From: Nemertoderma westbladi
Lineage: Eukaryota > Animalia > Xenacoelomorpha
Reading direction: 5' to 3'
NCBI GenBank assembly: GCA_032718475.1
Contig: JAUCBJ010004597.1
Span: 1 to 50,943 of the forward strand
DNA length: 50,943 bases
Shown in pieces: positions 8,200 to 34,198 of this stretch; position 1 is the stretch's first letter; each line of letters starts with the position of its first letter. Under the pieces are notes generated by a model. The model was not told the DNA's origin. It searched no databases and saw only the letters and a program-made list of their open reading frames with translations. The position numbers were made by a program, and so were the translations under genes.

Positions 8200-11100
8200 A
8201 GACCATAAGGAAGTGGAATCTGGAGAGGTGCAACTCAGCGTAAAAGGGGTTATGGCGTGTTATTAAAGGGTGAAACTGACCATTAAAAACGCCCTGGTAC
8301 ACACCGATCTCAGAGTGCGATTCCGACAATCCTCCGAATATGCACCTCTTATACAACTAGATCGGGAGTACGTGGACCTAAGATGCCCACCATTGGACGT
8401 CAACAGAATCACGTTACTTATCGGACTCGATACACCAGAGTTGCATATACCCACTGGAGATATCGCCCGTTCCGTAAAGCCAGACGACGGTTTCTACGCA
8501 GAGCACACCATATTGGGATGGACGCTCTGCGGGATTAAAGAGGAAACCACCGATACCTATACATACCTCCCGAAGTGTCAGATTGAAGGAAACGCAACCT
8601 CCGTGGTTTACTGTTCAGCGACAGAATAAATGAGGATCTATTCTTGGAGACAAAGAAGACACAACAGGAGATGACGAAATACTTTAACCTGGAAACACAG
8701 GAATTCGCCGAAAAGGACGAAAAGCCATCGGAGGAGGACCAATACTGTGTGGACGTTCTAGACAAAGCAGTGTTTAAGGACGGACATTGATGCTCGCCAA
8801 TGTTATGGAAGGATCCGGACAGACCAATGGCTAGCAACGCTAGTATGGCCCTGAGGAGGCTAAAGGGAATCTTGCGCAGGTTGCACGAGCTACCCGAGGT
8901 CAAGGAGAAATATAACAACGTAATTAAGGGATACCTGGAAGATGGACTAGTGGAGATGGTTCCCCAGGACGAATTGCAGGGGACAAAGAGAACCTATTAT
9001 CTTCATACCCACTACGTGGTAGAGGCCCGGAAGGCCGGAAATATCCGGGTGGTGAATGATGCTGCAGCTATGTATCAAGGTGAGTCGTTGAATAGCCAAC
9101 TATACACCAGACCCAACATATACAGCACGCTAATCGGCGTATTGATCCGATTCCGGGAGAATAAAGTAGCCTTCACGTGTGACATCAAAGCAATGTTCCA
9201 CCAGGTGCGAACTTTACCACGAGATTCTGACTGCCTCCGTATTCTAAGGACAGACAAAACATTAACCCCACAAGGAATAAATCAACTTACCTTGGCGGAT
9301 GTGGATGTAATGCGGATGATCGTCCGGATTCGCCAGTCGCGTGTAGCGACATGCTGAAGAAGACTGCGACCATGTGCGAAAATGAGTTCCCTCCGACCGT
9401 CATCGAGACCATCCGGAGATGTTTCTATGTGGACTACGGATGCGCTGGCGCCGATAATGTTGACGAGGCATATCAGCTCGCAATCGGAATGGTGGAATGT
9501 TTAAAGAGGGGAGGTTTCCCCCTAGTGAAGTTTAGATCACATAACAAAGAGCTTATGGAAAAGCTCCCGGAAGAGATCAACAGCGTACTCGTTATTGAAT
9601 GGGACGTAAAATTGGACCAGTTTATCTTCAAACATAACCCCTTACCCAAACCAATGACAAAGAGGGGATGTTTATCCGTGAAGAGCGCCATCTTCGACCC
9701 TTTGAATTTCATATCCCCGGTAACGTTAGCCGGAATGAATCTCATTAAAGAAATGTGGATCGAAGGACTGGGATGGGATGAAGAACTCCCCCCTCACCTA
9801 AGCGCCAAATGAAGAAGTGGACGGAGCAACTGGAACAGCTCCACCTCATGCGGATTCCTCGACCGTTCTTCCTCGACAAGCTGCCCACCAACATATTCCA
9901 GCTCCATACCTTCTCGGATGCCTCGAATACTGGAATCGGGGTAGTTACGTACATCCAGAGGTTAAGCCAAGATGGAAACGGTGATATTAGTTTCTTGTTC
10001 TCCAAAGCGAAGACGGTATCTGGGGAATTTGTGGCAACTATCCCAAGGCTCGAGCTGCAAGCCGCAATCTGGGCCGTAAGACAAAACCGCATGATTATGC
10101 GAAACCTGAGGATCCCCATTGAATCTCAACATTTCTGGGTCGATTCCAGAATAGTGCTCTACTACCTCCACTCACCATCACGATGACACACAACATTCGT
10201 GGCGAACCGAGCCACGGAGATAAAACAGTGCACCAATCGAGAACAGTGGCATCATGTAAATGGGAAAGAGAACCCGGCGGACTTATCGAGCCGAGGCGCC
10301 ACCCCATGACAGCTCGGTAGGAGTAAACTCTGGCTTACAGGCCCGGAGTTCCTAAAGCAACCGCAACGGACCTGGAGCACCCGATGTGATCCCGGATTAG
10401 ATAGTGGTAAATACTCGGAGGATGATAAGGAGATCTGCAAGGTCCGTGAGAGCGCCACCGTGGAGATCTATAGTTGTCTGACTAAGCCTGCAAAGGACTC
10501 GGACAGGCACTATAATGTTGCGACACTGAGCAACCAGCCGCCTCCTTACGACTCCTCATAGAGCAGACGATGAAACATCTCATCCATCACGTTATGACCG
10601 CCCGTAATTTCCTGCGTGGAAGGATAACAAACCGATAGTTCAGCGGAGTGTACAAGAACTCGTTATCGCAGGGAAATGTATTGTAAGATATGTTCAGAAA
10701 GAAAGTTTCCCCGACGAATGGGAGCAGCTCAATGCGGGCAGGACCTTGAAAGCTGATAGCCCGGTCTACCAGTTGAGACCCATGATGGGAGATGACGGAT
10801 TGATCCGCCTTAATACCCGGATGGCGAACGCCCTGGTTGAGTATGAAATTAAGTATCCAGCACTTCTGCCAGGAATGTCTACACTAGCTAAGCTGCTAGT
10901 CCAACAATGTCATGAGGAAAACCATCATGTGGGCCAAAACTGGATCATGGCCAATATCCGGCAACGATACTGGATCACCCACATCCAGCCGCTAATTCGG
11001 AAAGTATTGAAATGGTGTTTCTCTTGTAGGAGATATCTATCGCCACCACTCACCCAAAGAATGGCCGACCTGCCGGCCACGAGACTCCAGTCCGACTCGC

Positions 11101-12066
11101 CGCCGTTCTACGTAACTGGCGTAGACTGCTTCCGACCATTTACAGTTATAGAGTGACGATCCAACATCAAATGTTGGGGAGCCATCTTTACATGTCTACT
11201 GTCAAGGGCGATTTACCTGGACCTTGTAGTGAACCTCACGCAGCACGCATTCATCAACACCCTGCGTCAGTTCGTAGCGAATAATGGTTCATGTACTCGG
11301 ACAATGGAACTAACTTTGTGGGAGGAGAAAGGGAACTAAGAGAGGCTATTGAAGGATGGTTCACTAACGAAACTGCGTCACACATCTGGAAGGAACACCA
11401 CATCCAATGGCACTTCCAGACACCCTTAGCACCCCATACAAGCGGGGTATGGGAGAAACTCATTGATTTAGTGAAACGATCCATGTGGATTGCGTTATGG
11501 GATACCAGGGTCACTCATTGCACACCACATTCTGCGAAATCACGGCTACCCTAAACAACTGGCCAATCATTCCCATCCATGACGACCCAACCGATCTGGA
11601 GCCCCTCACACCCAGACATCTCCTTGGTAGACCTAAGTCCAACATACTTCCAGAGGCCATCTTCCCGGATCCCAATGACATTGCGAAACACACAAACTGG
11701 AAGAAAGCCCAAGCGCTGGCGGCGCATTGGTGGAGAATTTGGGCCCAGGAGTACCTTATAACCCTTCGAATGAGGAGGAAATGGAATGATACGTACCGGA
11801 ATGTCGCAGTTGGGGACATGGTACTCGTCAAGGATGACCTTAAAGACTGCGTCCACTGGCCTGTGGCGCGTGTCATGGAAATAACCCCAAGCAAAGATGG
11901 ACTTGCGAGAACGGTGACGATACGAATGGCAAAGGGCCACTACCAATGCCCTATCCAGAGGCTTTGCCTTCTCGAAGGCAATGACAGTGGTGACTCCATG
12001 AGAGGTGATAAGTTCCCTACTCCGGATCCTGCTGCGGACATTGGTGACACTGATAAACCCGTTTAA
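8200..12066 (+). pseudogene. Decayed BEL/Pao pol (protease C-terminal region, RT, RNase H, integrase, C-terminal domain); 5' part absent
   Basis: Motifs in order: LLIGLD..TILGW; RVVNDAAA..GESLN..LIRFRE..CDIKAMFHQV; FYVDY (YxDD mutated); IFDPLNF; LHTFSDAS..TIPRLELQAA..WVDS; [10 protein letters not shown]; HEENHHVG..CFSC; YSDNGTNFVG..GVWEKLI; VGDMVLVKD..WPVARV..GLARTV. Many stops and frameshifts. Confidence 0.95.
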
Positions 12067-12335
12067 CACATCCCATCCTGTTGACAAACTCTTTAAATGT
12101 GATTTACCGACAATGATTATGGACCCCCCTTAAACCAACTGTAACCACGCATGGTATTTGTGTTTCCTCGTGTGTTATGTGGAGTCCAGCGTCACCCTGC
12201 AGATGTTTCGACTGACGCTGGGTAGTTTATGTTTTGTTCACCCTGATTTTGGTCATCAGGACCAACTACCTTGGTTTATTGGAAATAGGAAAGTTTCGAA
12301 GTGTAAGTCATTGTGTCTATTATGTTTGTCCTGTG

Positions 12336-12698
12336 TTGTCCGTTACGTGTGCAGTTTGGGGCGTAGGCGGTGTAATGAGTCCAGCTGTAGATCCCAGACT
12401 GCCGCATAACACCCCCTCTATCGCGTTATTCTGGTGGGTCCATGGTACATTCCACATGACTTCGTCGATAGAGACTTTATGTTCCTCAGCCACGTTATTC
12501 TGGTGGGTCCCTGGTGCATTCCACGTGACTTCGTCGGCTGAGCTTTATGTTTCTGGGAGTGTTATTCTGGTGGGTCCCTGGTGCATTCCATGTGACTTCA
12601 CTTCCAGCGTTCTATTCATTGTCCGTTACGTGTGCAGTTTGGGGCGTAGGCGGTGTATCGAATCCAGCTGTAGATCCCAGACTGCCGCGTAACACCCC
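12336..12698 (+). repeat. ~80 bp direct repeat (12336-12416, 12619-12698) enclosing three ~68 bp tandem units
   Basis: TTGTCCGTTACGTGTGCAGTTTGGGGCGTAGGCGGTGTA...CCAGCTGTAGATCCCAGACTGCCGC occurs twice. GTTATTCTGGTGGGTCCmTGGTrCATTCCA occurs at ~12425, ~12494 and ~12561. Confidence 0.9.
12358..12370 (+). promoter_or_regulatory. Putative polypurine tract of the 8200-12066 BEL element
   Basis: GGGGCGTAGGCGG immediately before TGTAA, ~300 bp after the pol stop. Confidence 0.55.
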
Positions 12699-13305
12699 TT
12701 CCACAACGAAAATTTCCCAAGAAGATGGCTAAAAGTAGTACGAAATGATGGAAAGAAACAGATAACTCAACTATAAACTGAATGATGACTTGTACTATTA
12801 TGATGATGAGAATGTGATGATGTGCATCCCTGGTGTCTTGCGCTTATAACCCAATGATGATAGCCGGGGGGCTATAACCCCAATGAAATGGTGAAATAAA
12901 TGATGAAATGTGAAATAAATGATGAAATGTGAAATAAATAATGAAATGTGGAATAAATGATGAAATGTTAAATAAATGATGAAATGTGAAATAAATGATG
13001 AAATGTGAAAGAAATAATGAAATGTGAAATGAATAAACTATAGAAATAAAAAAGACAAAAAAAGGTATAAAATGTAGAATGGAAAAAGAATTTAAAAAAG
13101 AAGCGGACATGCGGACAAAAACTGGTTGGATAATAATGAATAGCTTTAGTAACTGTAAATACTGAATTTAGTACCAATAAGATGATAGATGCCTATATAT
13201 CAATAATATTACTTACATTAAAAATAACTATTCTGCAGTCGCTATAGAATCAGACTTTCTGGATTTATAATTAACTGAATTAATTTGTAACGGACGTAAT
13301 TTACA
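12371..13305 (+). repeat. Putative LTR A (~935 bp, TGTAA...TTACA) between BEL pol and exonuclease ORF A
   Basis: Starts TGTAA after the PPT and ends TTACA (inverted termini). It is followed by ATA and then TGG (13309). It contains internal tandem repeats and a TATA-like CCTATATAT at ~13192. No second copy in the window, so LTR status is inferred. Confidence 0.55.
12880..13035 (+). repeat. 19 bp minisatellite (ATGATGAAATGTGAAATAA)n
   Basis: About 7-8 slightly diverged units are directly visible. Confidence 0.9.
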
Positions 13306-13307
13306 AT

Positions 13308-15924
13308 ATGGACCCGAATCGCCAGATTCTCGGCGAATTACGTACTACAATTGATTTATTGGAAAATCCACTGGATCTCCTAGTTTTGATTTGATGTTTA
13401 GATGTTTAGGTTTAGATGTGAAATGGAATGCCCTGTTGAGCGAGAATGTGCGAGTCATTCGTTTCTCTGGGAGGGAGGTCCTGGATACCCATAACCTACA
13501 GGCGCTCCGGTTGTCCGATGCTAGTACAAGCCTGAAAAGGACTCGGAACGCTGAGGCAACCGGAGGAGGAGAGTTGTCGTTCTGGGATACGTTCCGGCGA
13601 AGCGTCTACAAATCCCGGTGCTTGATATACGACAATGAGGGCAACGCGATGCCAACTCCGAAGGCGGTTACAATGGCGCGATGTCAGAGTTTCATCGATG
13701 ATAAGAGTACATATCTCGCACACTGGGGAAACCTGGTGGAATGTACAGCGACGCTGTGAGAGGACTGAATGACAGTCATCCAAAACCGAGACGACTATAA
13801 AGAAAAATACAGGACAAAAGAGTACGGTCGGTCGCTAATCGTCATCCTCGGAACCCTAGACGGATTGGTACTGGTGTGTCGAATATTTCCAACACCACAA
13901 CAGGAAATACGGACAGCTGGAGTGATCTGGTTACTACCATCGGAGATCCAATAGATCCTGTTCGACTTTGATATTATCAAAATCGGATCAGATATAAAGG
14001 CGGACCTCCGAAACGACTACATCAACGCTCCATTCGGAAGGAACTGTAGAGAGGACATCAGCGCAACTTCATTGACACCCAAACCCTGCTGGTCTGGTTA
14101 CGGGTCACAGACTTTATGGGCGGGTTTAGAGAGGTGAGACGGACCAAATCCGGTATCGGCTACCTAGCAGTGCTAAACGGCGGTTTAGATTTTAAACCAC
14201 AGAAGTTCCCGGACTACAATAAAATCTACAGCGCGCATCCGGATCTAGCGATACATCATGAGCGGGAGAACCGTTGGAGGGATGTAGAGAGGAAGTGGAC
14301 GATCCACCAACGCTGGGATAATCTGGATCGCCAAAACTACATCTACGTAACGATGGAGTCTTACACGGTCGCCAAGTTTATCTGTAAAACCCTCGATAAG
14401 CATATTAGCGCGGTCCCCAACGCCTTCATAGACTACGAATGGAACGAGGTGATCGAACATGCATTCAAGGCGGTACAGAATATCCAACTGGGAGATACCA
14501 AGATGCTCGACATAAACGAATCCTGGGATCTGCATGGACCATTCGATATCCCAACGATTAACGATCTCCTTGGCGCAGAGGAACTTATAGTGTTGTCGGA
14601 AGGGGAGGAGTTATGGAAACACGAATGTGTTCTGTTATCCACACCGAAACGTCAACACATACCGGAAGTTGCCTACGGATCAGCCGCTAAGCGAATTGCC
14701 GCGACTGAGCCTACGATGGACTCTGGTGTAACTACTCCGCTTGGTTCCGGTAGTCCGGCGAGAGAACTAGTTACCACACTCGCACTCATTGACTTAGATT
14801 ATACATGCAGGAGGTTATCTCCTTACCCATTTCCTGGAGGAGAGGATTGGTCCACGGAAACCCCAAGTACCAGTACCCAGCCGACCCGATCTGTAATCCA
14901 AGTTACGAAGGGCCCTAGTATACCACCAACCCCGAGAGACCTCCTCGGGATTCCTTCGGCGAATATTCCGGCACTCCATCGCCGACTGGCTATTGCGACG
15001 GCTCCCACCATTCCAGAGGACCCGATGAGACTCACCCGATGGTACACGGAACAGAGGGAGTGGATTCATCGTCAGAAATGAGCACCCGAAATGCGTCCAG
15101 CAGACAATAAGGAGGGATACCGCAGCGAGGCCCAACACCGCGACAGCACAGCGTTCCGCGGGCTTCCTATGACGACGATTATCCCCAAGAAGGATAGACG
15201 ATTGGAATATTACGCCGGCGTACAGATCCCGATCTTCTTCGGTCAGGAAATGCAACTAGATGTTTGCAGTAGCTGTGGTTCGGATCAGTGTCCTCGCGGT
15301 AAGAAACAACGAGTAACCGAACCGTGTTTCCAAATCCTCGGGATAATATATTGCCCATATTGCGCCACCCCGGGCCATGACGTAGCAGTTTGCCCGACAC
15401 TTTATAACGTCTGTACGACGTGCAGCTTCCGTGGGCATATGGCGAGCCCTCGGTGCAACATTAAATGTCCTACCAAGGATGTTACAGCTACCGGGAACAT
15501 GGTTATGTTCGAGACATACGCCAATGTCCACGTAAAGACCAGAGCGTGATTGAGCGCTCGAAACGTTGCACAGGAGATGGCGTGCAGATATTTCTTGTTC
15601 CCCGAACGCCTCCATACGGTAAAGACCTTGCCTTTCCACTATGTGGATTTATTGCTTAGCGCCAATCTATTCGGTCTCTTCGAAGTGATTAGACGTCTAT
15701 ATTCGTATACCGAAGCGTTTGGAGATGGAGAATGGTTCCAGGTGGCACGAACCATCAAGCTGGAAAGGAGAACAGATCTCATCTCGATTCCCCCCCGAGG
15801 AAGGGCTGCCAGGAGGCAGGCAGCGTCACTTCTCATGTCGGCCAATGATGCCCCTCTACCCGCATTTGCGATAGATGAAAGTCGACGGGCGAAGAAAATG
15901 AAAGCATATCAAAGCAGGAGATGA
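13308..15924 (+). pseudogene. Decayed ~870-codon ORF A: DnaQ/WRN-like (DEDDy-type) 3'-5' exonuclease, Pro/Thr-rich linker, three CCHC-type knuckles, unknown C-terminal domain
   Basis: ExoI CLIYDNEG; VILGTLDGLVLV; LPSEIQ*ILFDFDIIKIGSDIKADL (ExoII); KSGIGYLA; RWDNLDRQNYIYVTMESY (ExoIII). Then CSSCGSDQC (degenerate knuckle), CPYCATPGHDVAVC and CTTCSFRGHMASPRC. ORF-track fragments 13391/13769 share one frame and 14116/15091/15550 share another. About 2 frameshifts and several in-frame stops. Confidence 0.75.
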
Positions 15925-16444
15925 AAGACCAGGACATTTATAGACACTTATTCGAACATTTATTTTTATATGTACGTAAACTAACTCTAGGACAAATTAA
16001 TCATAGACTATGCAATAATAAAAATTGGGTTTTTATATGGGGAAATGACCTTACGCAAACTCGATCCACCGATAGACCTCACGAAGGTCATTTGGGGGGA
16101 CTGTTCGCGGTATTTCAATTTATCATTACGCGAGTTACATATTTTTTGGATTTATATTTTATGAATGTTCCAATATCATTGGTGGGTGCGGGAACACAAA
16201 ATTTGGGCACATTTGATAGACTGGGGGCGATTTAAGGGCGAAACTTGGGCGGACTTAGGGGCGCGGGAACCATCTCAGATATTTAAGGGCCATGGGTGGG
16301 AGGTAAAATCAAGCAATACTCTCGGCTGTCAGGGTTGCCTGATAGTTACTAGAGGTCTAGACAACCTCCTTCTACTTCGGTAGTTGGTATCCCGCTAGGC
16401 CTGGGGACAAGGACTGCCCTTAGAGGTCCCTGGCCATCAGTGGT

Positions 16445-17000
16445 GACTGAGCCTGAAAAGGACTTGGGCGTTGCTCGATGCGCTAGGGATTTGCGACGGG
16501 ACTGATAGATCCTAAGCGGTTCCCGGTGCGTTGGCTACGACTGAGCCTGAAAGGGACTCGGGTGGAGTCTTCGCATTGGGGACTTGCGAAGGATCGACTG
16601 ACCGGACGGAAAGGAAGGGTTCGACGAGAACTGACTTCCTGGCATGGGCTCCACGACTGGCGTTAGTACGAGCCTGAAAAGGACTCGGAAGCTCCGACAG
16701 TTGGGGCTCACAACGGGCCGACAGACCCCTAGCTAAGCCGTACCGCTTTCCTGATGACCGATCCCGTTAGGGTTCGGGAAGGGTGGGTCGGACATGCGAC
16801 AGGGTCGAAAGACAGAGGACCGGACTTTACTGGCCTACCGACTATTCGGAGCGGGTTCTCGACTACTAACGTGACTACGAGCCTGAAAAGGACTCGGAAA
16901 GCTTAGGTGGCTGGGACCCTGCGATGAACCAACAGACCCCTATCTAAGCCGTACCGCTTTCCTGATGACCGATCCCGTCAAGGTTCGGGAAGGGGGGGAC
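16445..17000 (+). repeat. GC-rich diverged repeat array with a conserved GAGCCTGAAArGGACTyGG core
   Basis: Cores at ~16450, ~16543, ~16670 and ~16879. The last two units also share ACAGACCCCTAkCTAAGCCGTACCGCTTTCCTGATGACCGATCCCGT. Confidence 0.85.
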
Positions 17001-19650: not shown

Positions 19651-22600
19651 GCCACTGCCAGGATCGGCATGCTGCATTGCAGCTGCATTTTTAAGAATGC
19701 TGTGCCGGCTTGTCGACAAAATTGCACCGCTACAACTCCCTATCACCCATGACATTTGCTAGATCATCCGTATCTTCAAGGCCAGTGTCCTTTAAGATGC
19801 GTCTCAAGAAAGTCATGGGCTGTCCATGAGGCTGCCAAAGTACAAGATTATGCACTGGCTGGTCCTCATGGCGAAAGCAATGTCCTGCAAAGCGGAGGCG
19901 ATTTTGTTCTAGTGTCAAGCTTGGGGGAACCAATGAGACACCTCCAATGTTATATAATGTCAGGTTGGAGATGTGTGCATTGTACTTGACACAATGAACC
20001 CGGCGTAGCATTGTTGTGAATGTGACATCCAGAGATTTGGTGTCCTAAGCAGTTAGAGCCCTGTCATGGACTCCCATAGAGGAGTACTGGAACTACTGCT
20101 GCTCTAAATAATCGGACCTTAAGTTCCCGATTAATTCTCGGTGACTTCCAAATCCTGGAAAGCCTATTCAAGGCTGCCCATACCTTTCCCTTACGTATTC
20201 GAAGGTCCTCACCTGACTTCCGGATCCATGATCCCAGGTAATAGAAGTCGTCCACATGCTCAAGCACACCATCCTTTGATCTTATGCTCATTCAATCAGA
20301 GACTTGCTGAGGACTTTCAAAGTTAACTGTCAAAATTTTGGTCTTTCTGGAGTTAATAAAAAGACCAACACTAGAAGCAGCATGCAGCTGAGGAGGCGTT
20401 GGGCTCCCCCTAGTGATTCTGAGAGTACTCCTAAGTCATCAGCAAAGTCTAGATCAGTTAGGTACTTGGCAGGATTTCCTCGACTTCTGGAGCCAGTAGG
20501 TGGAGTTATCATCACCCCATCATCATTATGATGATCTAAGGACATGCGTAGAACATAGTCAACCACAATTATGAACAAGAATGGTGCAAGTGTGTCTCCC
20601 TGGAAGACGCACCATAGCACTTCAAATGGTTCTGTGTCACCATCAACAGTAGACACAAATGTTGTCAAACCATCGTATACTGATCTGATTGCTGCAATAA
20701 TTTCATCAGGAATCCCATATAATGAAAGTATGCTGAACATACGTGAGCGAGAGACTGAATCATAGGCCTTGAAGAAGTCAACAAAGATAACAGCCAGATG
20801 CCTGTCTTTCTTTTTTGATAACTCTTCAATTATCCTTCTAAGTGCCAAAATGGGCTCCATGGTCCCACGACCTTTACGGAACCCATTCTGATTTCCACGG
20901 AGCAGTCTCTCAATGGGATCCCTGATGCGATTTAATAGAATTGTATTGCATAGCTTTGCAGCAATCGAGATCAATGAGATTCCCCGAAAAGAACCATAGA
21001 GTGTTAGGTTGCCGTTCTTGGGAACTGGTACCCTGTCATTATTGAGGAGCTTTTCAAAGTGGGCCTTCCAACCATTGAGGCGATCGGCTGGTGATTCAGC
21101 TTTAACCTTGGTGGTTGGTTGGCTTTTCCGACCAGTAAGCAAGTTGATCGATTTCCATGCCTGGGATGATTGCCTGCTGTCGTCAGCATCATTGATGGCA
21201 TCAACCTGTTGGTTTATTAGCTCCTGTAGATTAACAGAGTACTGCCTGTTCAGGGACCTAGATGCAGCCTTAACTGCATTCTTGGCTGCTGTAGTCTGTT
21301 TGAGTCGGGACTCTTTCTGCGCCTTATATAGCGGTCATTTCGGCACTTCTGATTTTGTTGTCAGTCCAGGGGGCCCTTTTCCTGTTTCGAGGGTATACAG
21401 GAACTGTTTCTGTAGCTGCTAACTTAACTGCTTCTGTGAAGGCAGTATAGCCCTCACAGTGATCTGCCGCCTCAGAGGCAAGAACCTCATACCTGTTGCT
21501 CAGCTGTAGTGTGAAGCTGATCTCACACTTGACTGTTGCAACAGAGAGGACCAGTCATGCCGCGGCAAGGAAGATGCAGTCTGATTGGCCACAATAAGGC
21601 GGTGATCACTGGATAAGGGTTGAAGTGTAAATGCATTACGCTCTTGTATAGAGCTCCTGTATTTCCTATAAAACAGAATATGGTCTATCTGGGACTTGTG
21701 ACCACTGGGTCCACTATGAGTCCATAGCTTTCCAGTTCGCTTCTGGACTGGGTTCCAGCCGAAAACAATCCATTTCCAGAGATAAAATCCTGAAGATGGA
21801 CGGAATTTCGGTTAACACTATTGCTATAGACCCAGGGCGATGTTAAGAATGCATGCTGATCCACTCCATCAGTAGCTGCTTGTAGATTGTGGTAGAAATT
21901 TTCCACCTCCTCTACAGGGGCAACACTAGTTGGAGAGTAGCGCACAATTAGAACCACCTTAGGAAATTTCTTAGCCAGTCTTCCAGAACATGAGAAGTGG
22001 CAATGGATGATGCGGTTAGAGATTTGGTCTAATTTGTCCAATGCTGCATGTGCAGTTGGATTCATCAATAGACCAATACCACCATTGCCACTATCATCTG
22101 CTGACGCGAGGGCGAGTCGCCAACCGCCCCCCATGTCTTTAATCAGAACCTCATCAGTCTGTCCAGTCTGCATTCGGTGCTCTTGAACACCTACTGCGCT
22201 AAGAGAAAGCTTATCTGCCAAGGCAGTCTGCTCACCTTGTCGCATTGGGGACCCGAGTGTTACGGTGTTTACTGAGGCTAGTCTAGTGACTTGCCTCAGA
22301 TTCACCAATGGCTTTGTTGGTCGGGGTGGAACATGATACCACACCCTGGTTTGCCATTCCACAGGGTGGGTGTCGCAGTGGGGTCAGATATGAGGCCCAT
22401 CCCCCATATCTACTCTGGCGCACATGACCCACCATTGGCAGTGCAGCTCATCTGCTGGGTCATGCCCTGTACCCCTGCTGCCAGGTGCAGGTCGCAGTGA
22501 AGTGCACTCAGGGTGGACATGAGAACACTCTACTCCTGACCAGCCATTGGTAGATCACCATCCGTCTGGCCAGGCCATATACCCCTGCAGCCAAGTATAT

Positions 22601-23310: not shown

Positions 23311-25639
23311 GATCGAGTTATTAAGGTTAAAATATTGGAGCACCAGACCAACAGAACGACAGGTGTATTAATTAATTAATGCTAAGGCTCATGATACTTC
23401 GTGGCTCGCCCCACAATTCTAGTCTTTGTCAAATGTTAGATTGCTGATGACACATTATGGGGGTGCGTGGGGTGGGGGTTACATCTAATATATTTTATGG
23501 AAGGTGTTTGTTTAACGTTGATAGTATTTTACGTGGTTTTTTGTGTATTTTTTCATAAGAAAGAAATGCTTGAAGAAAGAAAATGTCCCCTTAAAATATA
23601 ATATTTGTGAAAGTACAGGTAGCAATTAATAACTTTTAGACACTCTATTTTTTATAAGAATGGCTTCGCTTTTGTAATAAAGACACTCCATCAGAACGCT
23701 AAATTCTTTCACTTACAAAAGTACAGAATGTTGTGTTGATAGTTATTACATAAAAAGTAAATGATGATGTGCCTGTAATAACAGAACTGTACAGGTAGTA
23801 CTTAACTCCTGTTGCTGAACAAATCGGTGTGGCGCTTGTTAGTAACGCTTATCCACTAACCTAGTTTTGGTACTGCAGGTGAAAGTCACTCCCGCCTGCA
23901 GTGGCCATCGTACAGGTGGTATGTATGTATGTGTTCACTGATTCACAGGTGATGTTGGGTTGTAGGGGTAGAGCACCTGATAAAATGTAAAATATGAAAA
24001 ATAATTACTGTAATTGCTTATAGCATAATCGGTTACTACTCGTTATACTTTATACATTTTTTAAAGTTTTACAATTCGAGAGGTAAAAGTTGGAAGTACC
24101 AGAGCTTGCTTCAAGCTTTTAGATCCCGAATTGTAAATCTATTAAACCCTTGTAAAGCCGGCGGAGGGGGTCTACATGAACCCACTTTTTGGTTTTCGGT
24201 TTTTTGTTATATGTGAAGGGATCCTGGTTGGCTAATGGAATCCCGACCGGATTGACTGATGTCTTAGTTCCTACGCGTCGCCGCTTTAACTGTTGTTGGA
24301 AAATACTGATGGCCGAAGGCCGGGTAAATAAAGAGTTTGTTGTTGATTGTCGTTGTTAATATATCAGAATTTACCGTTAGTATGATTACAGCACAAATCA
24401 GTATAATGTTATAGACAACAGACGGTGGAATCTATGCGACATCCTACATAAATGATAGTCAACTAAGCCAATAGGCAGCACGTGATACCAGCATATATGG
24501 ATATCAGCATATATATACTCAACACGTATGGCTGCCCAACGAATCGATACACATGATCTGGTAATTGCCATCTGTGGCCCTCCCATTGGTCGGCTTATCC
24601 TATCCTCACAATTCCTATGCACCTTTGGCTCTTGTTAGCCCCTATCCCCTGAGGTGTGTTTTTAAACCACCTCATGGATAACATTGTTACAAATGACATT
24701 ATCTGGTATGCATTATTGGTTGCATATCTCAACTGATTGATAAATCGGCTCACCCCCCATTTATTGGTTGGTAGTGTGCTACGGAATGGATCGGCTTGCA
24801 CTCCCCCCATGCTATCTTCTCAGTAAGATGATAGCATCAATGATAAGTGCTCTCCATTCAGGGGAATCCAATCTAGCATTGGATGTGGGGTTGAAATATA
24901 TTTTCACTGAGACCAGTCTCCCAATTTGTTCCCACTGGGTCTGGTCTCACTACCCTACCTTGTCACACCTGCGAGCTAAGTTGTTCCAGGGTATGTGGCG
25001 TCTCTATTTTAGATGATTGCACCTCCACACTCAATTTTAAATTGGGTACCGTTGGATCCGATCTGCCGATCCCCCAATTTCATCACTTCTCACTCACCTC
25101 ATTAGTCCCATAGGACTCATCTTCATCCTGGCTAGCTCCCCACACTTTCCTGGATGTTGCACCCTTCATCATTCAACCTCCCAAACGCACACAAACATTA
25201 CACGTTTCTAATCAACTTAATGCACTTTACTCCAGTCGGATCCCCACAATCCCATTTGTGAGGCCTCACTTGAGAAATGGTATCCATCCTATGTCTCATC
25301 CTCCTGTTTCAGTCAATGAGTCCCCCGTCCCAGTAGATAGTTGAGAAAGGTTACACTTGACTACATAATACATACTTGGTGATTATATTATCTAGATCTA
25401 AGCGTTAAAGGCAGGAGTGTTCTTGAAACATTAGTTTGTAGTCGATGATGCCTTCCAGGCATATTGATGTTATCCCGTCAGTTTAGAGCTTTCTTCCCAT
25501 TCAGTTCGGAAACCATCGCAGATCTTTACCTCTGTCATCATCCTGCCTCGGGTGTTTCCTATTGTGCCACTGGTTCTTCATTGCGGTTGTACGTGCTGCA
25601 TGACCCTGCTGATCCCTGTGGTTGGTTCTTTGGGCGGGG

Positions 25640-28600
25640 CCATTATCGTCTCTCAAATATCGTTTTGCTGGTGATCCCATCAGGTGCCCTTCTTGTCCAC
25701 CCCTTGTGGCATCCCACATGATGATCCTCATCTCGCGGGAATGTGTTCTTTAAAGAATCCCCTAAACTCTGCTTTCCTTTCCACCAACCACCTACCCAGG
25801 TATCATTGGGTGTTGGTAGCCCCTCCAAGCGATGCTGCTGTAAACCCCTTTCTGGTAAGTAAAGGGTATCTTCCTGTGAATCAGCTCGTGATGGGTTTCC
25901 TTGTTGAAATTGAAGAAGTCCCACCGGAATTCTTGGGCCTTTTTCCTTTGTTTCGTCATCAACCCCACATCCGCCCAATGTTCGAACACCTGAAATTTCT
26001 CCCCATTTCCCATTCCGTTGCAGTGGCGCTCGAAATGGCCATGGAACTTCCACTTATCACATCTGTAGTGTAGTTCCGGAGATGCACCCATGGTATGCCT
26101 GAAGTCGCGACAATACTTATGGCTCACTCCTTTATTGTATCGATATGGACAGTTCTTTCTTTGGTGGATTAATCACCCACAGTAGTCGCAGCCATCTATT
26201 ATGGCTTGCCTCCCGAACTCGTCCTTCTCACTATGCGTCCGTTTGGGTTTGTGGAGTCATTGATATATAAACATTTCAATGTTCGCATTGCGACCCATAT
26301 CTATCTCTGTTTCCTCCCTCAGCACCACTCAGCGCCGAATACTACTTGCAGTGCCATTCCAGGTTGTTCCCCTAGTCTGATCGCCACTGCCGTGAAGTCG
26401 GTTACTGGTTCTCCATGTTCCCGAGCTCTTTTACCTGGGACATCCCATAAACCTCTCGCCCCGCTGGCTGTCACCACTCTTCCATCTACCCAGTCCGTAT
26501 CTGCCGGCCCAATCTGTTCTATCAGCGACATTTCCCCGATCTCATCCTGTTCCATCCTTTCCAATGGGCATGGTTCCAGGCCTGGAATTATTTCCGATCC
26601 TGATATCTTTCTCTGGACCAGTTCTTGTATGAGAACTCCCCACGTCCGCTCTCGACCTCTTCCTTGCATAGTTGCTCTCGGACCCCGCAGGTATTGGCAT
26701 CATCTGCAATCAAGACATTGATTGAATTGGTGATCCCTTAGGATATCTCGGCATCCTTCCCTCTTCCTCCTCAAACCAAAACCCGCTAGAACTAGAGCCC
26801 TCCGAGGGCCATCTCAACTTATCCAGGTCGTGCACCCGAATTCATACTCGTCCTCCCATCCTTTCTCTATCTCATACTCTCATCCTCTCTCATTCTCTCC
26901 CTGCCGCATCCTTTCTTTCTCTCCTAGCGGCCTCTTCCTCCCTGTATTCCTCTTCTCGATCTGCCTCCTTCTTCTCCCATCATTGGAATGCTCGATCTGC
27001 CTCCTTCTTCTCCCATCATTGGAATGGTGTATCTATGCCTCTAACCACTAGATGCCTTTTATTATAGTATAACCGACTCACCTTTCCATCCCGGGTGGTC
27101 TGCAAGATCTTCCAGAGGTACCTTAACCCTATTAAACCCGGGGGGGGGGGGGGGGGGTCAATATGACCACCCCCCGTGGTTTTTTTATTATAATTCTGAA
27201 ACATACGCAGTTGGGAATCTGAAATTTTATGACTTTTTCTAAAAATCTATTGTCTTCCTAGTAGTGAAAACCGTTTTCAAAAATATTGGGTACTTTTCGA
27301 GTTATAGCACCATTTTTTAACCCTACTTTTGGCACTTTTTTTGAGACGTTTTTTGAAAATTACATTTCATTAAATATGAATTGTAACATCTCTATTTTAG
27401 ATTTACAACGGTTTTTTGGTGTTAGAAATTGGATGGAATTCATATAAATTGATTTAGAAATTTCAAACTTGTTTTTTTCGGTGGGTGCCAAATTTTGGTG
27501 CCAGTACCAAATTTTAAAATAAGTCAATTTTGTAAATTGATTGTTTGAAACTTGTTTTTTACGCAATTGGGGTTTTTTGGGGTTCTGGATTCGATGAAAT
27601 ATATACGAGTTGCACCAAGCGTATCGAACTTGTATTTTTCGGTGCTGTGTGCAAATTTTGGTGCAAGCACGAAATTTTGAAAATCCATTCAATAGATAAA
27701 ATTGCTTGTGACAATTTATTTCTTGCGTTTTAGAGGTTTATGGCTGTTCTGAATTCAATGGAAAATATAATTATCGAACTAGACATCTCAAACTTGTATT
27801 TTTCGGATGTGGGTGCAAAATGTGGTGCTAGCCCCAAATTTTGAAAACCATCAAATATATCAATTGATTGTGTCACCTTGTTTCTTGCGTTATACGGGTT
27901 TGTGATGGTTCTGAATTCAATGGAATCAGTAAAAATTCCATAAGAGTTCTCAAACTTGTATTTTTCGCCGGTGGGTGAAAATTGTTGTGCCAGCACCAAA
28001 TTTTGGAAAATATTCAAATTGATAAGTAGATAGTATCACCTTGTTTCTTGCGTTATACGGGTTTATGAGGGTCCTGAATCCGATGGAATCAATAAAAACA
28101 GCACTGGACATCGCAAACTTGTAGTTTTTGGTGATGGGTACGAAACTTGGTGCTAGCACCAAAATTTGCCAAATTACGCCGAAAAATACAAGTAGCAATG
28201 ATCTGGCATATTAGAAATGTATTCCATTAGAATCAGCGCCCTCGAAAACATGAAAATGTGAATTTATAGCATAGTATAAGTGAATTAAAAATTTTGTGTT
28301 CTAACTGAAAAGTGCTGGTTACTTGTTTTTTTCATTTATTTCCTACGCAGAGAGGACTAAACAGCCATTTATAGTAATCATATCATTTTTAAATATTTTC
28401 CAATGTATTTTGCACCCCAGAAAACCTGTATTGAAAAATAATTAGCCGAAAATGTAACTTTCAAATTTTGTGAAAATTGTGCACTACTTGTAATTTTAGT
28501 GCTGCAATATAACCACCCCAGTACATTTTTTCGAAATTTTTTTTTTCTATATATATACCTACGTACAAACAAAAAATCAGACGTTTTCGTAATTATTTGT

Positions 28601-29649
28601 GGATTTTAGAGAGGAGGGTCAATATGACCCCCCCCCCCCCCCGGTATTTGTACAACATTTTATAGCCCGGTACTAATAGGGCTAAAGGCTCTCCTATGGC
28701 TCAGTGTTGATCCTAAAAGTAGAAATGCTGTCGGCTCCTTGCCAATGACCACCATTACGAACAGGTTCACCAACCTGATCATTATCCAATCCTCCTGCAA
28801 GATGTATTCTGGTCCAACTTGATTACCCCCTTTCGGAATTGATATATCTCTTCCCTCCTCGGCCTGAGTGAGTTTTGAGTGAGACCATCAGTTCCACTCC
28901 ATTTTCTCCTCGGAACTTCTTCCACTCCATTGGTTTATGAGACACGAGTCCCATCAGTTGTCCCATGGCTACGGCAACATATTGTCCCATATTCTCCACC
29001 AATCCCAGCCCGTCTGGTTTCGTCATAGCCATGTAGATTACCTGCATGTCCAGAAGGCTCGGGGTGTTTGGTCCAATGATCCGTTCCGCGTCGTCACGGA
29101 TTGCCGATCTGATCTTGACCATCAACTTGGTCCTAACTAACTACTGGACGGCTTCCAGCAGGTTTAGTTTAGGCCCGTCCTTCTTTCTATAGGTCCCCAA
29201 GTCGAACAGAAAAATATCTCCCTTCAGCACTGCCATATGCAGCAATATGGTTCTACCCGACCCCATTGACTCCCTCCTTGTCTCCTCATGATCCTCTACG
29301 GTCCCTCATCGTCCAAGACTATGCAGCATTCCCTCTCTATTGACTCCATAAACTTCTTCCATTCCTTCCTCGGTAAATTTCTCTTATGAGTCAGGATCCC
29401 AAAGGAGGCTTCTTTCTCTTTCACGACATAGTGGAAATGCTCGTTGATCGCAGTGTCTAACAATGGCGTCCCGTAGATCCCCACGTGCAGGCTCCGATAG
29501 TGATCCTGCAGTCCGTGTGCTTTCTGGCTCTTATGGAGTCGCTGGTAGTACTTCCTTGACTTATTCTCCGGCTCCCTCCTGGTGAAATCGACTAACAAGT
29601 CCTTCTCGCTCTTTTCCAACATTCTCTTCTAGAGTCATTTCTCCGCCAT
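25640..29649 (-). pseudogene. Decayed ORF B, divergent homologue of ORF A (exonuclease, charged linker, three CCHC-type knuckles, shared C-terminal domain), split by a piggyBac MITE
   Basis: EWKKFMESIERECCIVLDDEG (A: FWDTFRRSVYKSRCLIYDNEG); LLHMAVLKGDIFLFDL; LVRTKLMVKIRSAIRDDAERI; LLDMQ; EYILQED. FGRQAIIDGCDYCG*LIHQRKNCP (A: FGQEMQLDVCSSCG). KYCRDFRH..PELHYRCDKWKFHGH (A: PYCATPGH..PTLYNVCTTCSFRGH). FEHWADVGLMTKQR..KIPFTY (A: FETYANVHVKTRA..TLPFHY). 3' boundary approximate. Confidence 0.75.
27127..28681 (+). mobile_element. piggyBac-like MITE, copy 2
   Basis: TTAA at 27123-27126, CCCTATTAAACCCGG ... CCGGTACTAATAGGG, right TSD mutated to CTAA (28682-28685). Colinear with copy 1. Removal restores the ORF B reading ...HRRAFKVPLEDLAD... 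Confidence 0.9.
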
Positions 29650-29671
29650 CCCTATCTTTCTCTCACCAAAC

Positions 29672-30557
29672 TGATGGTGGCGCCTTGGAAAGGCTCAGTA
29701 GGGCAAGAGACAACTAATTTTATTCCAATCAGTATTATCAGAGATGGCCTACACTCCTTTTCGCCTTATTCTACAATTATTTTCAAGTGTCAATTTTCCC
29801 TACATTCGCAATTTTGTCCATCTAGAATTTTATTTTTCTAGCTCCTACGTTTTCTTCATTTTGGTGTAATTATTTATTTCTACATTTTCGTTACTCATTA
29901 AGTAACGCTACATCAATTCCATCAATTACTTTGTAAGTAATTCTTCACTACTTATTGTTTAGCTTACAGAAAAGACTAGCTACAATTACTTCTATTGTTA
30001 TACTACCTTTCCACCAGACAGCTTCCTGGGTCAGTAGCAATACTGTAAGTCTGCACCCTATGTTAAGCGTTATAGTAGTCTAGCTTATGCAGCCTACACC
30101 AGCTAGCCTATCACGCCTATATATCCATTAAACCCCTCACGTGGCGCCCTCAGTGCCCACAATAGTACCTATTATCTACTAGTATTGCTCCCATTGACCC
30201 AGCATCCCATAGTACACTCTATCTATGGTGGTATGTTAGTACCCTTCTAATCCTAAGTATGGTCCCATTGACCCGGCATTCCATAGTACACTCTATCTAT
30301 GGGGTAGTACTTATGTACTCATCTAATCCTAAACATGGTATTTATGTACCCTTCTATTCTTAGTTTTCCCATAGTACACTCTATCTATGGGTAGTACGTA
30401 TGTACTCTTCTGGCTTATGTAATTATGTACATTAGTACAGGTGTACTCATCAGACGTACCTTGTATGTACATTAGTATGTATGTACTCATCTAAACCTAG
30501 TTATATTTTTATTTATTTATTTTAATTCATTTTTGTGGGTAGGGGGTATCGCCCTCA
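29672..30557 (-). repeat. Putative LTR B (~886 bp, TGA...TCA) between a BEL integrase C-terminus and exonuclease ORF B
   Basis: Minus strand: PPT-like GAGGGGGGTGGGAA, then TGAGGGCG; internal tandem repeats (CCCATAGTACACTCTATCTATGG on the + strand, ~30200-30400); AATAAA ~45-50 bp before the end ...CGCCACCATCA; then GTT, TGG (29668), and an ATG at 29649. No second copy in the window. Confidence 0.55.
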
Positions 30558-30591: not shown

Positions 30592-30895
30592 TCAACTAAT
30601 GTAGGGTGATTCTTCCAGCAGGCAACACTTTCCTACTGCCCTATTGTAAGTTTTCCTGTCTTTCGCTCCAATCTTCACGCCAATCCTGAATTTCCTGACT
30701 TTCCTGACTCTCCTGATCCTGATCTGACATTCCCATCTACTCCGGGATAGCACTCGATGACTCTGGCGAGTCTCCACTGATTGTTGATGACCGTGACATC
30801 CATCACTATTATTAAGTCGCCTTTCTTCAGCTCTCGTTTATTATTCTTCCAATTACTCCTCTTATGCAACGTCGGTAGTGATTTGGTTATAATTT
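30592..30895 (-). pseudogene. C-terminal fragment of a BEL/Pao integrase
   Basis: LPTLHKRSNWKNNKRELKKGDLIIVMD..NNQWRLARVIECYPGVDGNVR..KTYNRAVGKCCLLEE. Confidence 0.85.
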
Positions 30896-30899
30896 GAAT

Positions 30900-33579
30900 A
30901 CCATGAGGAACTCATTAAATGCATGGAAAGGATAGGTATAAACATAAATCCTGTTGAGCAGGAAGAATACATAAAGACGGAATATCAACAAATGAGACAA
31001 GTTATAATTAATGCTAAAGCATATAATAAGAGTACATGCATGGCCATTGAACAGAGAGAAAGAAATAATACTATAAAGAGTTTCCAATTGAATTTCAGAA
31101 TTTCAGCAGAAGGTCCCAGTGGAAAAATTGAGATTCACATGAAAAGCCTTCAAGATGATGTTTCAGAATCACATATTGAATAGAACCACCAAGAATTGTA
31201 CATTGAGCTGGAAAGTGTAAAAGGTTTATATACAAAATTCACCACACTCATTAATGAATGCGAAGATGAAGAAATTGTGCTAAGGAATATTATGCATGAG
31301 ATTGGGAGGGCAAGTAATCAAACTATAGAATATCTAGATAAGCAATCCGGAAATACCAATTTAACACAACACGATTTACACCAGATTTGTCTATGACAAG
31401 AGATAAAGTTTACCATGGCAGAGTAAAACTCGAAGCAGTTCCCATTCCAACATTTCTGGAGGTTACACCAATTGGCCAACATTTATAAGCACTTGGAAAA
31501 GGATTGTAGAAAAACATTATTCTCCCGAATTTTGGAGTACAATGCTGAAGGAGAAATTAAAGGGAGAAGCTTCAAAGTTAGTGTCCGCATGTGATGATGA
31601 TTATGAAGAAATGATAAGGCGCCTTTCAAGGAAATGTGGTGATAGGAAGAAGGTCAGTTAATCAATATTGGCTGAAATTAAAAACATTAGACCATTAGAG
31701 AATGAAAATCATGCGGATTTATAAATTTTATTAATTGTATTGAAAAGGCTGACATGAAATTAAAGCAACTGGATATGATCAGGAAATGAGCACATCGGGC
31801 TCTATGGCTGAAATTTAAAAACTATTACCTGATGATGTCCGAAATGAGTGGGTAAGGTATATTACTGATAAGGATGATGAGGTAAGAGCTAATCCTTATC
31901 CATTAATGATTCCTTTCTTATTAAGAGAAAAAGAATGTGTAGAAAAAATTTATTTAATGCATCTAGATCGAATGTTAAAAAACAAATAAATAATGTATCG
32001 AGTCACTTTCAAGAGGTAGAGAAAGTTCAACATGATGAAGAGCCAAGTCCTATACCAAATTTCCAAAATCCAACCATAATTTGTTTCAAATGTAATTACG
32101 GTGGCTATATTTCTCGCCAATGTCCTATGAATAAAAAATATTTCACCTGTTGTGCTTGCAATAGCAATGAACATTTGAATAACAACACCTGTGAAAAATT
32201 TTTATCGCTTACACCTAAAGAAAGAAAGGAATTACTTAAAAGACAAAGTAGTTGTTATAGATGTTTTGGAAGACATTTTATCGCCGCTTGTAAAGGGTTT
32301 AGTAGTTGTAAAAGATGTGGTAATTCGGGGCATCATACAGTGCTTTGCTTTCATAAGGAAGATATCACTGGAAGAGTATCTTCTGGTTTGGTAGAAAATT
32401 CATGGCCAAATCTAGAGCAAGATAATAAGGATATTGGATCTGATGCAAATACTATGTTAAACATTATGTCTGTTACAGGACCTCACTTAAAGAGTAAAGT
32501 AAACATACTCTGGGATCCAGGAAGTACTGGATTGTTTATTACCAATAAGTGTGCGGAACGATTCAAATTCCCAAGTAAAGATTGTAAGGAAGAGTAAAGA
32601 TCATCTCCAACCAGACAGCCCATGACTTTCTTGAGACGCATCTTAAAGGACACTGGCCTTGAAGATGCGGATGATCTAGCAATTGTCATGGGTGATAGGG
32701 AGTTGTGGCGGTGCAATTTTGTTGACAAGCCGGCACAGCATTCTTAAAAATGCAGCTGCAATGCAGCATGCCGATCCTAGTAGTAGTAGTAAGTGGTTGA
32801 TGTACGAGTTTTACAAGGTCATATTGAAACAATAGAAACTCGAGTTTATACCATTACTATACATGATCGTAATAATAAACCTCATGTATGCCAAGCTTAT
32901 GGGATAGATGTAATATCAAATAATATATCACCAGTGAATATGGAAGTCACACAAAATATATTTTCTACTACACCAATTAACGATTTGAGACGACCTACCA
33001 GTGAAATAGATATTCTAATTGGGAATTATAAAGCGGGATAAAGCGGGATAAGCGGGATAAGCGGGACGGCATGGAACAAAGCATAAAGTCGGATAGTAAA
33101 CACTTGCTTATTCTAGAGAATATATTTGGAAGATGTTGGGGAGGATCGCGCACCCATCCATCACGGAACTGACAATAAAGAAAATGCATAATTGGATAGA
33201 TGCAAATCATCATGTATGGGTAAGTGCTGTGACTGTATCGAATTATCACATTGAGTTATTACCAAATTAGTGTAATTTCGGAATTTCGGAAGTAGTTCCG
33301 AAATGTGGAGGATGTCGCTGTGGTAAATGCCCCAGATCTGGTCATACTTACAGCTTCAGAGAGCTTGAAGCCTTTAATCCTAATAGCTCCACTACTCCTG
33401 TACGAATTGTATTTGATAGCAGTCGAAGAGCAGGGAAATATTCCTTGAATAGTTGTTTAGCCAAAGGACCAGGATTTGCAGGTTTAGAGAGGGTCATTTT
33501 GCAATGCAAGCTGACATAAGAAAGATGTACAATTCAGTGGATATTGAAATTCAAGATCAACATTGTCATAGATTTCTCT
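30900..33579 (+). pseudogene. Old BEL/Pao element, gag-protease-RT part (host of later insertions)
   Basis: VKLEAVPIPTFSGGYTNWPTF..LKGEASKLV; knuckles CCACNSNEH, CYRCFGRH, CKRCGNSGHHTVLC; protease LWDPGSTGLFI..IDILIG; PKCGGCRCGKC; TTPVRIVFDSS..SLNSCLAKGP..ADIRKMYNSV..CHRFL. Many stops and deletions. Confidence 0.9.
32598..32790 (+). mobile_element. 5'-truncated RTE 3' end with (TAG)n tail, inserted in the BEL protease region
   Basis: Highly similar to the reverse complement of ~19660-19825 (CCCATGACTTTCTTGAGACGCATCTTAAAGGACACTGGCCTTGAAGA...GCATGCCGATCC), followed by TAGTAGTAGTAG. BEL coding resumes VVDVRVLQG. Confidence 0.9.
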
Positions 33580-33755
33580 TCCATTCAATGGATAAAATTG
33601 CTTGTGACAATTTATTTATTGCGTTTTAGAGGTTTATGGCTGTTCTAAATTCAATGGAAAATATAATTATCGAACTAGACATCTCTAACTTGTATTTTTC
33701 GGAAGTGGGTGCAAAATGTGGTGCTAGCACCAAATTTTGAAAACCATCAAATATA

Positions 33756-34094: not shown

Positions 34095-34096
34095 AT

Positions 34097-34106
34097 TGGC
34101 GCCCGA
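34097..34106 (+). promoter_or_regulatory. Primer-binding site, probably tRNA-Lys
   Basis: TGGCGCCCGA 2 nt after the LTR matches the first 10 nt of the classical Lys3 PBS (TGGCGCCCGAACAGGGAC). Confidence 0.7.
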
Positions 34107-34198
34107 TATTAAAAACTCATTTAGTTCATTAAATAAATACATTACATTATTGTGTAAACTGTTCATCGTCATTATTCGGCAAGTTCATTACATTCACA

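What the first reader, a model, noticed from the sequence alone, without database searches (positions are those of the whole stretch)
25640..29649. ORF B: hidden divergent homologue of ORF A on the opposite strand
It is invisible in the ORF track because stops, frameshifts and a 1.55 kb MITE fragment it. Block-wise similarity to ORF A holds across the exonuclease (W..F..S....C...D.EG; K.gS.I..D; KP..F/W) and the knuckle/C-terminal region, while the linker is unrelated (Glu/Arg-rich versus Pro/Thr-rich). Conserved motifs with low overall identity suggest an old, diversified family that was under purifying selection, not a recent local duplication.
Basis: partly seen in the sequence, partly recalled or inferred. 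Interest (0 to 1): 0.7.

Follow-up and report, generated by a model that had tools for sequence, protein, structure and literature searches.

The report
BEL retrotransposon exonuclease-knuckle third gene
This is a broken copy of a gene related to a second broken gene in the same window; both sit just behind the end of a BEL/Pao jumping gene, so they are likely that family's extra third gene, predicted to encode an RNA-trimming enzyme joined to RNA-binding zinc knuckles.

Summary
ORF B (29649 to about 25855, minus strand) is a decayed homologue of ORF A (13308-15924, plus strand, itself broken), split by a piggyBac-type MITE. The knuckle/C-terminal block is clearly homologous (0 of 150 shuffles, 0 of 96 decoys). 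The N-terminal block is borderline (1 of 150; not significant). The linkers are unrelated.

Each ORF lies 1.0-1.2 kb behind a BEL/Pao integrase end (DUF5641) on the same strand. Both ORFs share the GC3-rich codon use of the pol next to A, and both regions have diverged copies in two studies. They are most likely the third gene (ORF3) of a BEL/Pao lineage.

A DEDDy exonuclease domain is supported only moderately (hhalign E=0.0034, 0 of 150 column shuffles; no Pfam, PDB or fold hit). No homologue was found elsewhere, and the deepest search never ran. DEDDy ORF3s are published for rotifer Juno/Vesta and Athena elements; my searches found none for BEL/Pao. Verdict: new variant of a known kind; function untested.

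The parts
25855..29649 (-). ORF B: decayed ORF3-like gene from the first ATG to the end of similarity with A; broken by stops, frame changes and the MITE
28730..29361 (-). B, putative DEDDy exonuclease domain: ExoI-like D.E at 29313, ExoII-like D block at 29119-29090, ExoIII not recognisable; frame change near 29300, stops at 29143 and 28825
27123..28685 (.). piggyBac-type non-autonomous element (TTAA target, CCCT/AGGG ends, internal 162-bp repeats), very high copy
   Evidence: thousands of contigs laid; the piggyBac label is recalled from the end pattern
26220..27122 (-). B linker, purine-rich on the coding strand, with a 36-bp tandem duplication; unrelated to the linker of A
26020..26190 (-). 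B, three CCHC-type knuckles (first with canonical spacing and a stop inside; second and third degenerate)
25855..26019 (-). B, conserved C-terminal segment of no known family
   Evidence: no Pfam or PDB hit
30181..30411 (.). 74-bp tandem repeats in the spacer between the BEL integrase end and ORF B
30678..30911 (-). BEL/Pao integrase C-terminal remnant (DUF5641) upstream of ORF B on the same strand; the rest of this element is not found in the window
   Evidence: Pfam PF18701 E=4.2e-13; tblastn to the pol end next to A, E=4.6e-5
8267..12066 (+). broken BEL/Pao pol (RT to integrase, DUF5641) upstream of ORF A; gag and 5' LTR not seen
12336..13034 (.). 69-bp, 83-bp and 19-bp repeats in the spacer between pol and ORF A
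13308..15924 (+). ORF A: homologue of B, about 870 codons, broken by 5 stops and 2 frame changes; D.E (13631), D (14003), Y and E in the ExoIII position (14344-14361), two canonical CCHC knuckles (from 15352 and 15412)
10485..16897 (+). six copies of an 18-nt motif (10485, 13529, 16450, 16544, 16671, 16880) that can fold as a short tetraloop hairpin; ties pol, ORF A and the 3' region together
   Evidence: 6 found, 0.02 expected; hairpin in 4 of 6 full, 1 partial, 1 other fold; z -0.9 to -2.3

Best explanation
ORF B is a broken homologue of ORF A, and both are likely decayed copies of an accessory third gene (ORF3) of a BEL/Pao LTR-retrotransposon lineage, predicted to encode a DEDDy-type 3'-5' exonuclease, a variable linker, three zinc knuckles and a C-terminal domain of no known family. 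Shown: homology of the C block, position behind a DUF5641 integrase end on the same strand in both cases, diverged copies of both regions, MITE insertion and decay. Inferred: both belong to their neighbouring elements, and the N-terminal domain has the DEDDy fold. Hypothesis I commit to: the intact protein, made from its own subgenomic message, bound the element's RNA through the knuckles and trimmed RNA 3' ends during particle assembly or reverse transcription. A and B come from two subfamilies that split long ago and inserted separately; this B copy is dead.
For: Same layout twice: pol stop 12066 to ATG 13308, and integrase-end motif 30607 to ATG 29649, each spacer with tandem repeats. GC3 0.57 (pol next to A), 0.54 (ORF A), 0.57 (ORF B) against 0.24-0.32 for the other BEL genes and 0.33-0.43 for LINEs. 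An 18-nt motif shared by pol, ORF A and the 3' region. Contigs 80-95% alike cover all 30 bins of 7800-17430 in 3 of 4 runs, with 7-18 contigs per listed site in ORF A in X1; at least two diverged copies of parts of B in X1-X3. DEDDy: with an HMM of 40 bacterial PF01612 domains, B scores above all 300 shuffles and A above 298 of 300, both on the ExoII register; A/B pair profile against the same set E=0.0034 over 112 columns, 0 of 150 column shuffles. Precedent: DEDDy ORF3 in rotifer elements (PMC5408684).
Against: No Pfam, PHROGs or PDB exonuclease hit for any piece. Atlas features point to CCHC for the C block (0.79-0.83) but to unrelated nucleases for the exonuclease piece, all below 0.9. HMM scores are 1-2 bits; four subgroup HMMs were weaker, and reversed B scored 3.1 bits against one of them. 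hhalign probability is 9.5%, frames at the breaks were picked by eye, and a differently registered pair gave E=0.51. A has about 46 more residues than B after the ExoI-like motif; the last ExoIII residue is E in A and not recognisable in B. No LTR pair, gag or target-site duplication was found for either element, and no contig was seen to bridge pol and ORF. The integrase end next to B is not closer to that next to A (score 85) than A is to the ORF3-less element C (98). No homologue outside this organism.
Confidence: 0.65

Rival explanations
1. It is a BEL/Pao ORF3, but the exonuclease-like domain works as an RNA-binding adaptor without cutting, as EXD1 or Egalitarian do, helping to package or localise the element's RNA, perhaps through the repeated hairpin.
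For: E in place of the last ExoIII D in A and no ExoIII in B; three knuckles; six copies of a hairpin-forming motif in element A; PMC5408684 notes inactive DEDD derivatives that keep RNA binding.
Against: ExoI D and E and ExoII D are kept in both A and B across about 73% divergence; the motif is absent from the B element.
Confidence: 0.15
2. It is a BEL/Pao ORF3 whose N-terminal domain is not a DEDD nuclease; the motifs are chance look-alikes and the protein is a second nucleocapsid-like protein of unknown fold.
For: No library hit; weak HMM scores; N-block A/B homology only borderline.
Against: Five motifs in DEDDy order, with A and B falling independently on the same columns from the second strand to the GL-like motif; 0 of 150 column shuffles; the knuckles show no special kinship to the BEL Gag knuckles of the window (E=0.044 over 15 columns).
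Confidence: 0.12
3. The ORFs belong to a separate repeat (or to host-gene retrocopies) that landed next to BEL fragments by chance in a repeat-rich region.
For: BEL remnants are common in the window; no LTR pair encloses pol and ORF; no bridging contig was listed.
Against: The same strand, order and spacing twice; shared GC3; the 18-nt motif in pol, ORF A and the 3' region; unbroken multi-copy cover.
Confidence: 0.08

Closest known systems
DEDDy exonuclease ORF3 of bdelloid rotifer LTR retrotransposons Juno1/2 and Vesta2/5, also in Athena Terminons (PMC5408684; main text read)
   Same: Non-env gene behind pol, same strand, DEDDy-type motifs, no activity shown.
   Different: Carrier here is BEL/Pao; the ORF is about 870 codons with a linker, three knuckles and an extra C-terminal domain; the acid pattern in A reads D-E-D-E where the rotifer ORFs have DEED; homology there is strong (HHpred), here weak. 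Rotifer sequences were not compared.
Belpaoviridae / Semotivirus with an env-like third gene, such as Tas and Cer7 (PMC8742986 whole text; PMC554778 passages)
   Same: BEL/Pao pol with DUF5641 followed by a third gene.
   Different: The third gene here shows knuckles and nuclease-like motifs and no fusion-protein family hit. I recall that some nematode Cer elements may also carry an exonuclease domain; the papers were not held, so this is unchecked.
Cellular DEDDy proteins of PF01612: RNase D, Rrp6, WRN-exo, EXD1/Egalitarian, mut-7 (PMC3985635 passages)
   Same: Order and spacing of ExoI, the two following strands, ExoII and the D.Q and GL-like motifs.
   Different: No significant library hit; no HRDC detected; repeat-borne and multi-copy.
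Gypsy ORF3 with Rrp6-like exonuclease, HRDC and CCHC (earlier scan notes e1-7469866, e1-9570289; unchecked)
   Same: Exonuclease joined to a knuckle in the ORF3 slot.
   Different: Gypsy carriers, another genome, clear Rrp6 likeness; no sequence link to A/B was found.

Membership tests
BEL/Pao (Belpaoviridae) element | pol with BEL-type RT, RNase H and integrase ending in DUF5641 | tested here: met
   A: H2C2 and DUF5641, tblastn to the BEL pol of element C, nearest database hit a BEL polyprotein at 36%. B: only the DUF5641 end.
BEL/Pao (Belpaoviridae) element | LTR pair, PBS, PPT and gag enclosing pol and the third ORF | tested here: inconclusive
   No LTR pair for A or B in self-blastn; one PPT-like site plus TG at 17053 after A, none after B; both elements are truncated.
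ORF3 accessory gene of an LTR retrotransposon | separate ORF downstream of pol, same strand, recurring with the element | tested here: met
   Seen twice in the window; multi-copy cover runs across pol and ORF A; linkage in other copies not seen directly.
ORF3 accessory gene of an LTR retrotransposon | expression from a spliced or subgenomic RNA | not testable with these tools
   No RNA holder was listed.
DEDDy 3'-5' exonuclease (PF01612) | ExoI D-x-E and ExoII D | tested here: met
   A 13631 and 13976-14005; B 29313 and 29119-29090; ExoII aligns to the family column in both, ExoI in B and in the pair profile.
DEDDy 3'-5' exonuclease (PF01612) | ExoIII Y-x3-D | tested here: inconclusive
   A has W..L...Y-x3-E at 14314-14361, placed by eye (MAFFT did not align it); not recognisable in B.
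DEDDy 3'-5' exonuclease (PF01612) | profile match above the curated cut-off | tested here: not met
   No PF01612 hit on fragments up to E=10; only directed tests pass shuffles. The whole domain could not be scanned in one frame.
DEDDy 3'-5' exonuclease (PF01612) | RNase H-like fold | tested here: inconclusive
   AlphaFold2 without depth gave mean pLDDT 38; no fold search was run.
CCHC zinc knuckle (retroviral type) | C-x2-C-x4-H-x4-C | tested here: met
   Canonical in A (15352) and in B (26190, with a stop inside); further variant or degenerate copies; Pfam only at E=0.15.
piggyBac-type MITE | TTAA target duplication and CCCT...AGGG ends, no transposase | tested here: met
   TTAA at both ends of the 6191-7758 copy; one change in the right-hand site of the copy in B.

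The most novel reading that the evidence does not exclude
An old BEL/Pao lineage replaced env with its own RNA-handling protein, a DEDDy nuclease fused to a triple zinc knuckle and a new domain, which recognises a hairpin repeated six times along the element's RNA and so selects, protects or transports that RNA against host silencing. It would be a third, independent capture of such a nuclease by retroelements and the first with a candidate cis signal.
Probability: 0.12. Interest if true: 0.72.

Novelty: new variant of a known kind. Interest (0 to 1): 0.42.

Why it matters
Why retroelements carry 3'-5' exonucleases is an open question posed for rotifer elements (PMC5408684). A BEL/Pao case would extend the pattern to a further superfamily and suggests repeated capture with a shared benefit; the knuckle fusion and the repeated hairpin give a testable link to the element's own RNA. 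It also shows that BEL/Pao third genes need not be env. This locus itself is dead sequence; its value is as a pointer to a family that standard libraries miss.

Tried and rejected
No whole genome is held. Word-indexed protein searches found no relative of A's 624-residue read-through (0 of 5167 candidates, lengths 343-1092) or of B's exonuclease part (0 of 43); the pol end gave 1 hit of 827, a plain BEL polyprotein. The full HMMER search of cluster representatives never ran, so remote homologues remain unsearched. Viral and metagenome contigs: nothing. PDB sequences: nothing meaningful. Two AlphaFold2 models had mean pLDDT 38 and were not used. Rfam: no hammerhead or other family at the repeats; 3 sub-threshold matches elsewhere. 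No RNA holder listed. Runs X5 and X6 hold little or none of the ORFs; not used as evidence. A first profile comparison on a mis-registered MAFFT pair failed. Rejected: recent local duplication (no DNA match); endogenous RNA-virus gene (no viral hit; BEL context); origin of the knuckles from the window's BEL Gag; an alternative genetic code (other elements have 750-1000-codon ORFs under the standard code). Earlier scan notes by place, by sequence and two word searches were empty.

Full report
Setting. The window is eukaryotic, about 36% GC outside coding repeats, and filled with mobile elements: several BEL/Pao LTR retrotransposons, LINEs, a 1.8-kb (CTGA)n array and three copies of one MITE. 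No whole genome is held. ORF A was not defined in the finding; the quoted motifs identify it as 13308-15924 on the plus strand.

Observation. All quoted motifs occur in B at the stated place and in the same order as in A. About 92-96 codons precede the W..F motif in both. The C block (knuckles plus about 55 further residues) is clearly homologous: tblastn E=7e-4 within the window; frameshift-aware score 98.5 against 38.6+-5.7, reached by 0 of 150 codon shuffles and 0 of 96 window decoys; 0 of 1000 residue shuffles; 30% identity. The N block is weaker: 1 of 150 shuffles and 0 of 64 decoys, 2 of 1000 and 6 of 500 with frames picked by eye, but not significant in the first test (49 against 43+-6); 47 of 175 aligned columns are identical. 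The linkers do not match. There is no DNA match between A and B. The MITE boundaries are right. ORF A is also a pseudogene here, with 5 stops and 2 frame changes.

Context. ORF A starts 1242 bases after the stop of a broken BEL/Pao pol that ends in DUF5641. On the minus strand, about 960 bases upstream of ORF B, lies another DUF5641 integrase end (Pfam E=4.2e-13; tblastn E=4.6e-5). Both spacers hold tandem repeats. GC at third codon positions is 0.57, 0.54 and 0.57 for the pol next to A, ORF A and ORF B, against 0.24-0.32 for three other BEL genes and 0.33-0.43 for three LINE ORFs (the row for the short DUF5641 piece of B was out of frame and is left out). An 18-nt motif occurs 6 times (0.02 expected), only between 10485 and 16897, in pol, in ORF A and four times behind it. 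The young element C (LTR stretches 99-100% alike) has no such ORF. Against: no LTR pair, gag or target duplication encloses A or B, and the integrase end next to B is not closer to A's (85) than A's is to C's (98).

Copies. Three of 6 listed runs, from 2 studies, hold B; one may be the source of the window. Laid contigs show the same locus in the second study (15 other letters and 2 gaps in 1180 bases) and diverged copies: 80 other letters and 44 gaps over 28982-29724; a contig that matches 25408-25792 and then 26171-26622 and so lacks the knuckle part; 98 other letters over 25924-26419. For 7800-17430, 3 of 4 runs cover all 30 bins, mostly with contigs under 95% alike. Contigs are not copy numbers, and alleles add to them. 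Of 40 rows shown (of 1239), 14 lie in ORF A, one of them at a stop that the other contigs do not share; 4, 8 and 2 fall on codon positions 1, 2 and 3. That fits private decay of this copy against a conserved family, but the rows are selected and few, so selection is not shown.

The N-terminal domain. Pfam, PHROGs, PDB and the ESM Atlas gave no exonuclease hit on any piece. As a directed test I built profiles from 40 bacterial PF01612 domains, picked by hand from the matches to cover WRN-like, short RNase D-like, RNase D and PolA types. With all 40, B scored 2.2 bits (0 of 300 shuffles) and A 1.2 bits (2 of 300), both over ExoII; the four subgroup profiles were weaker (A 3 and 15 of 300 or no hit; B 4 to 96 of 300), and reversed B scored 3.1 bits against the RNase D profile. 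Added to the alignment, A and B fall on the same family columns from the second strand through ExoII and the D.Q motif to the GL-like motif. A pair profile aligned without DEDDy guidance gave E=0.0034, probability 9.5%, 112 columns from ExoI on, 0 of 150 column shuffles; subgroups gave E=0.015-0.43, and a mis-registered pair E=0.51. I put the DEDDy assignment at about 70-75%. ExoI D/E and ExoII D are kept in both; the ExoIII position reads Y-x3-E in A (by eye) and is lost in B. Structure prediction failed.

The C-terminal part. There are three knuckle-like units; A has two well-formed ones and B one canonical and two degenerate. Atlas leads agree (CCHC, scores 0.79-0.83, below the reliable range). 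They show no special kinship to the BEL Gag knuckles of the window. The segment after them matches no family.

Mechanism. Shown: homology, position, multi-copy state, decay. Inferred: membership of the element and the DEDDy fold. From established knowledge, DEDDy enzymes trim RNA or single-stranded DNA from the 3' end and CCHC knuckles bind single-stranded RNA. The most likely working model is a helper protein, made from a subgenomic message, that binds the element's RNA and trims 3' ends. The rivals are a non-cutting adaptor, a non-nuclease domain, and chance adjacency. The repeated motif folds as a tetraloop hairpin in 4 of 6 copies, in part in a fifth (z -0.9 to -2.3), and 16640-16940 folds better than all 100 shuffles (z -2.5). 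It is a candidate cis signal, but B's element shows no counterpart.

Literature. PMC5408684 (parts 1-3 of 5 and passages) reports DEDDy ORF3s in rotifer Juno and Vesta elements and in Athena Terminons, untested for activity. PMC8742986 (whole text) lists only an env-like third gene for Belpaoviridae. Passages of PMC2774666, PMC6338049, PMC5718144, PMC3118150, PMC3985635, PMC11662393, PMC554778 and PMC8220671 name no BEL/Pao exonuclease ORF; PMC3985635 mentions an uncharacterised Caenorhabditis PF01612 subgroup. The Egalitarian preprint 10.1101/2025.08.03.668247 was seen as a listing only. Ten searches showed no such report among the rows listed. Malik 2000 and Ganko 2001 were not held, and I recall, unchecked, that Cer elements may carry an exonuclease. 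No supplement was read; the element sequences in the supplement of PMC3118150 may hold unannotated relatives. Earlier scan notes describe Gypsy ORF3s with an exonuclease and a knuckle in other genomes; these are unchecked leads.

Verdict. Real feature; dead copy of a likely BEL/Pao ORF3 with a probable DEDDy domain and knuckles. New variant of a known kind; interest 0.42.

Noticed in passing
window 10485, 13529, 16450, 16544, 16671, 16880 (+): An 18-nt hairpin-forming motif occurs six times in element A only, twice inside coding regions; some contigs in X2 and X3 skip about 3.1 kb between the copies near 13548 and 16662, as a deletion between repeats would.
   Followed up: partly
window 13952 (+) and 29143 (-): A and B each have a TAG after a Gln at the same aligned position just before ExoII; probably coincidence, read-through not excluded.
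   Followed up: no
window 30893-43396: Nested insertion: a BEL element (gag from about 30.9 kb, pol remnants 41.9-43.4 kb) is split by the MITE, which is split by a young BEL element with near-identical LTRs (33756-34018 and 40670-40933).
   Followed up: partly
window 17451-19258: 1.8-kb almost pure (CTGA)n array directly after element A.
   Followed up: no
window 19654-19824 and 32614-32784: A 171-nt RTE-like LINE piece occurs twice in opposite orientation (96%); the second copy interrupts a BEL gag-pro region.
   Followed up: no
window 3619-4055 and 7763-7873 (-): Remnants of a further BEL integrase on the minus strand, separated by small inverted-repeat elements and the MITE.
   Followed up: no
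window 5849-5955, 4769-5411, 24048-24157: Long imperfect palindromes; the first scores below threshold for MIR399 on both strands and is probably a small DNA-transposon end.
   Followed up: no
window 24212-24404 and 49790-49984: Inverted 70% match of about 200 nt, an old repeat of unknown kind.
   Followed up: no
window 16828 to 11219: One contig in each of X1-X3 runs from the 3' region of element A back into its integrase region, which suggests a rearranged or nested copy elsewhere.
   Followed up: no
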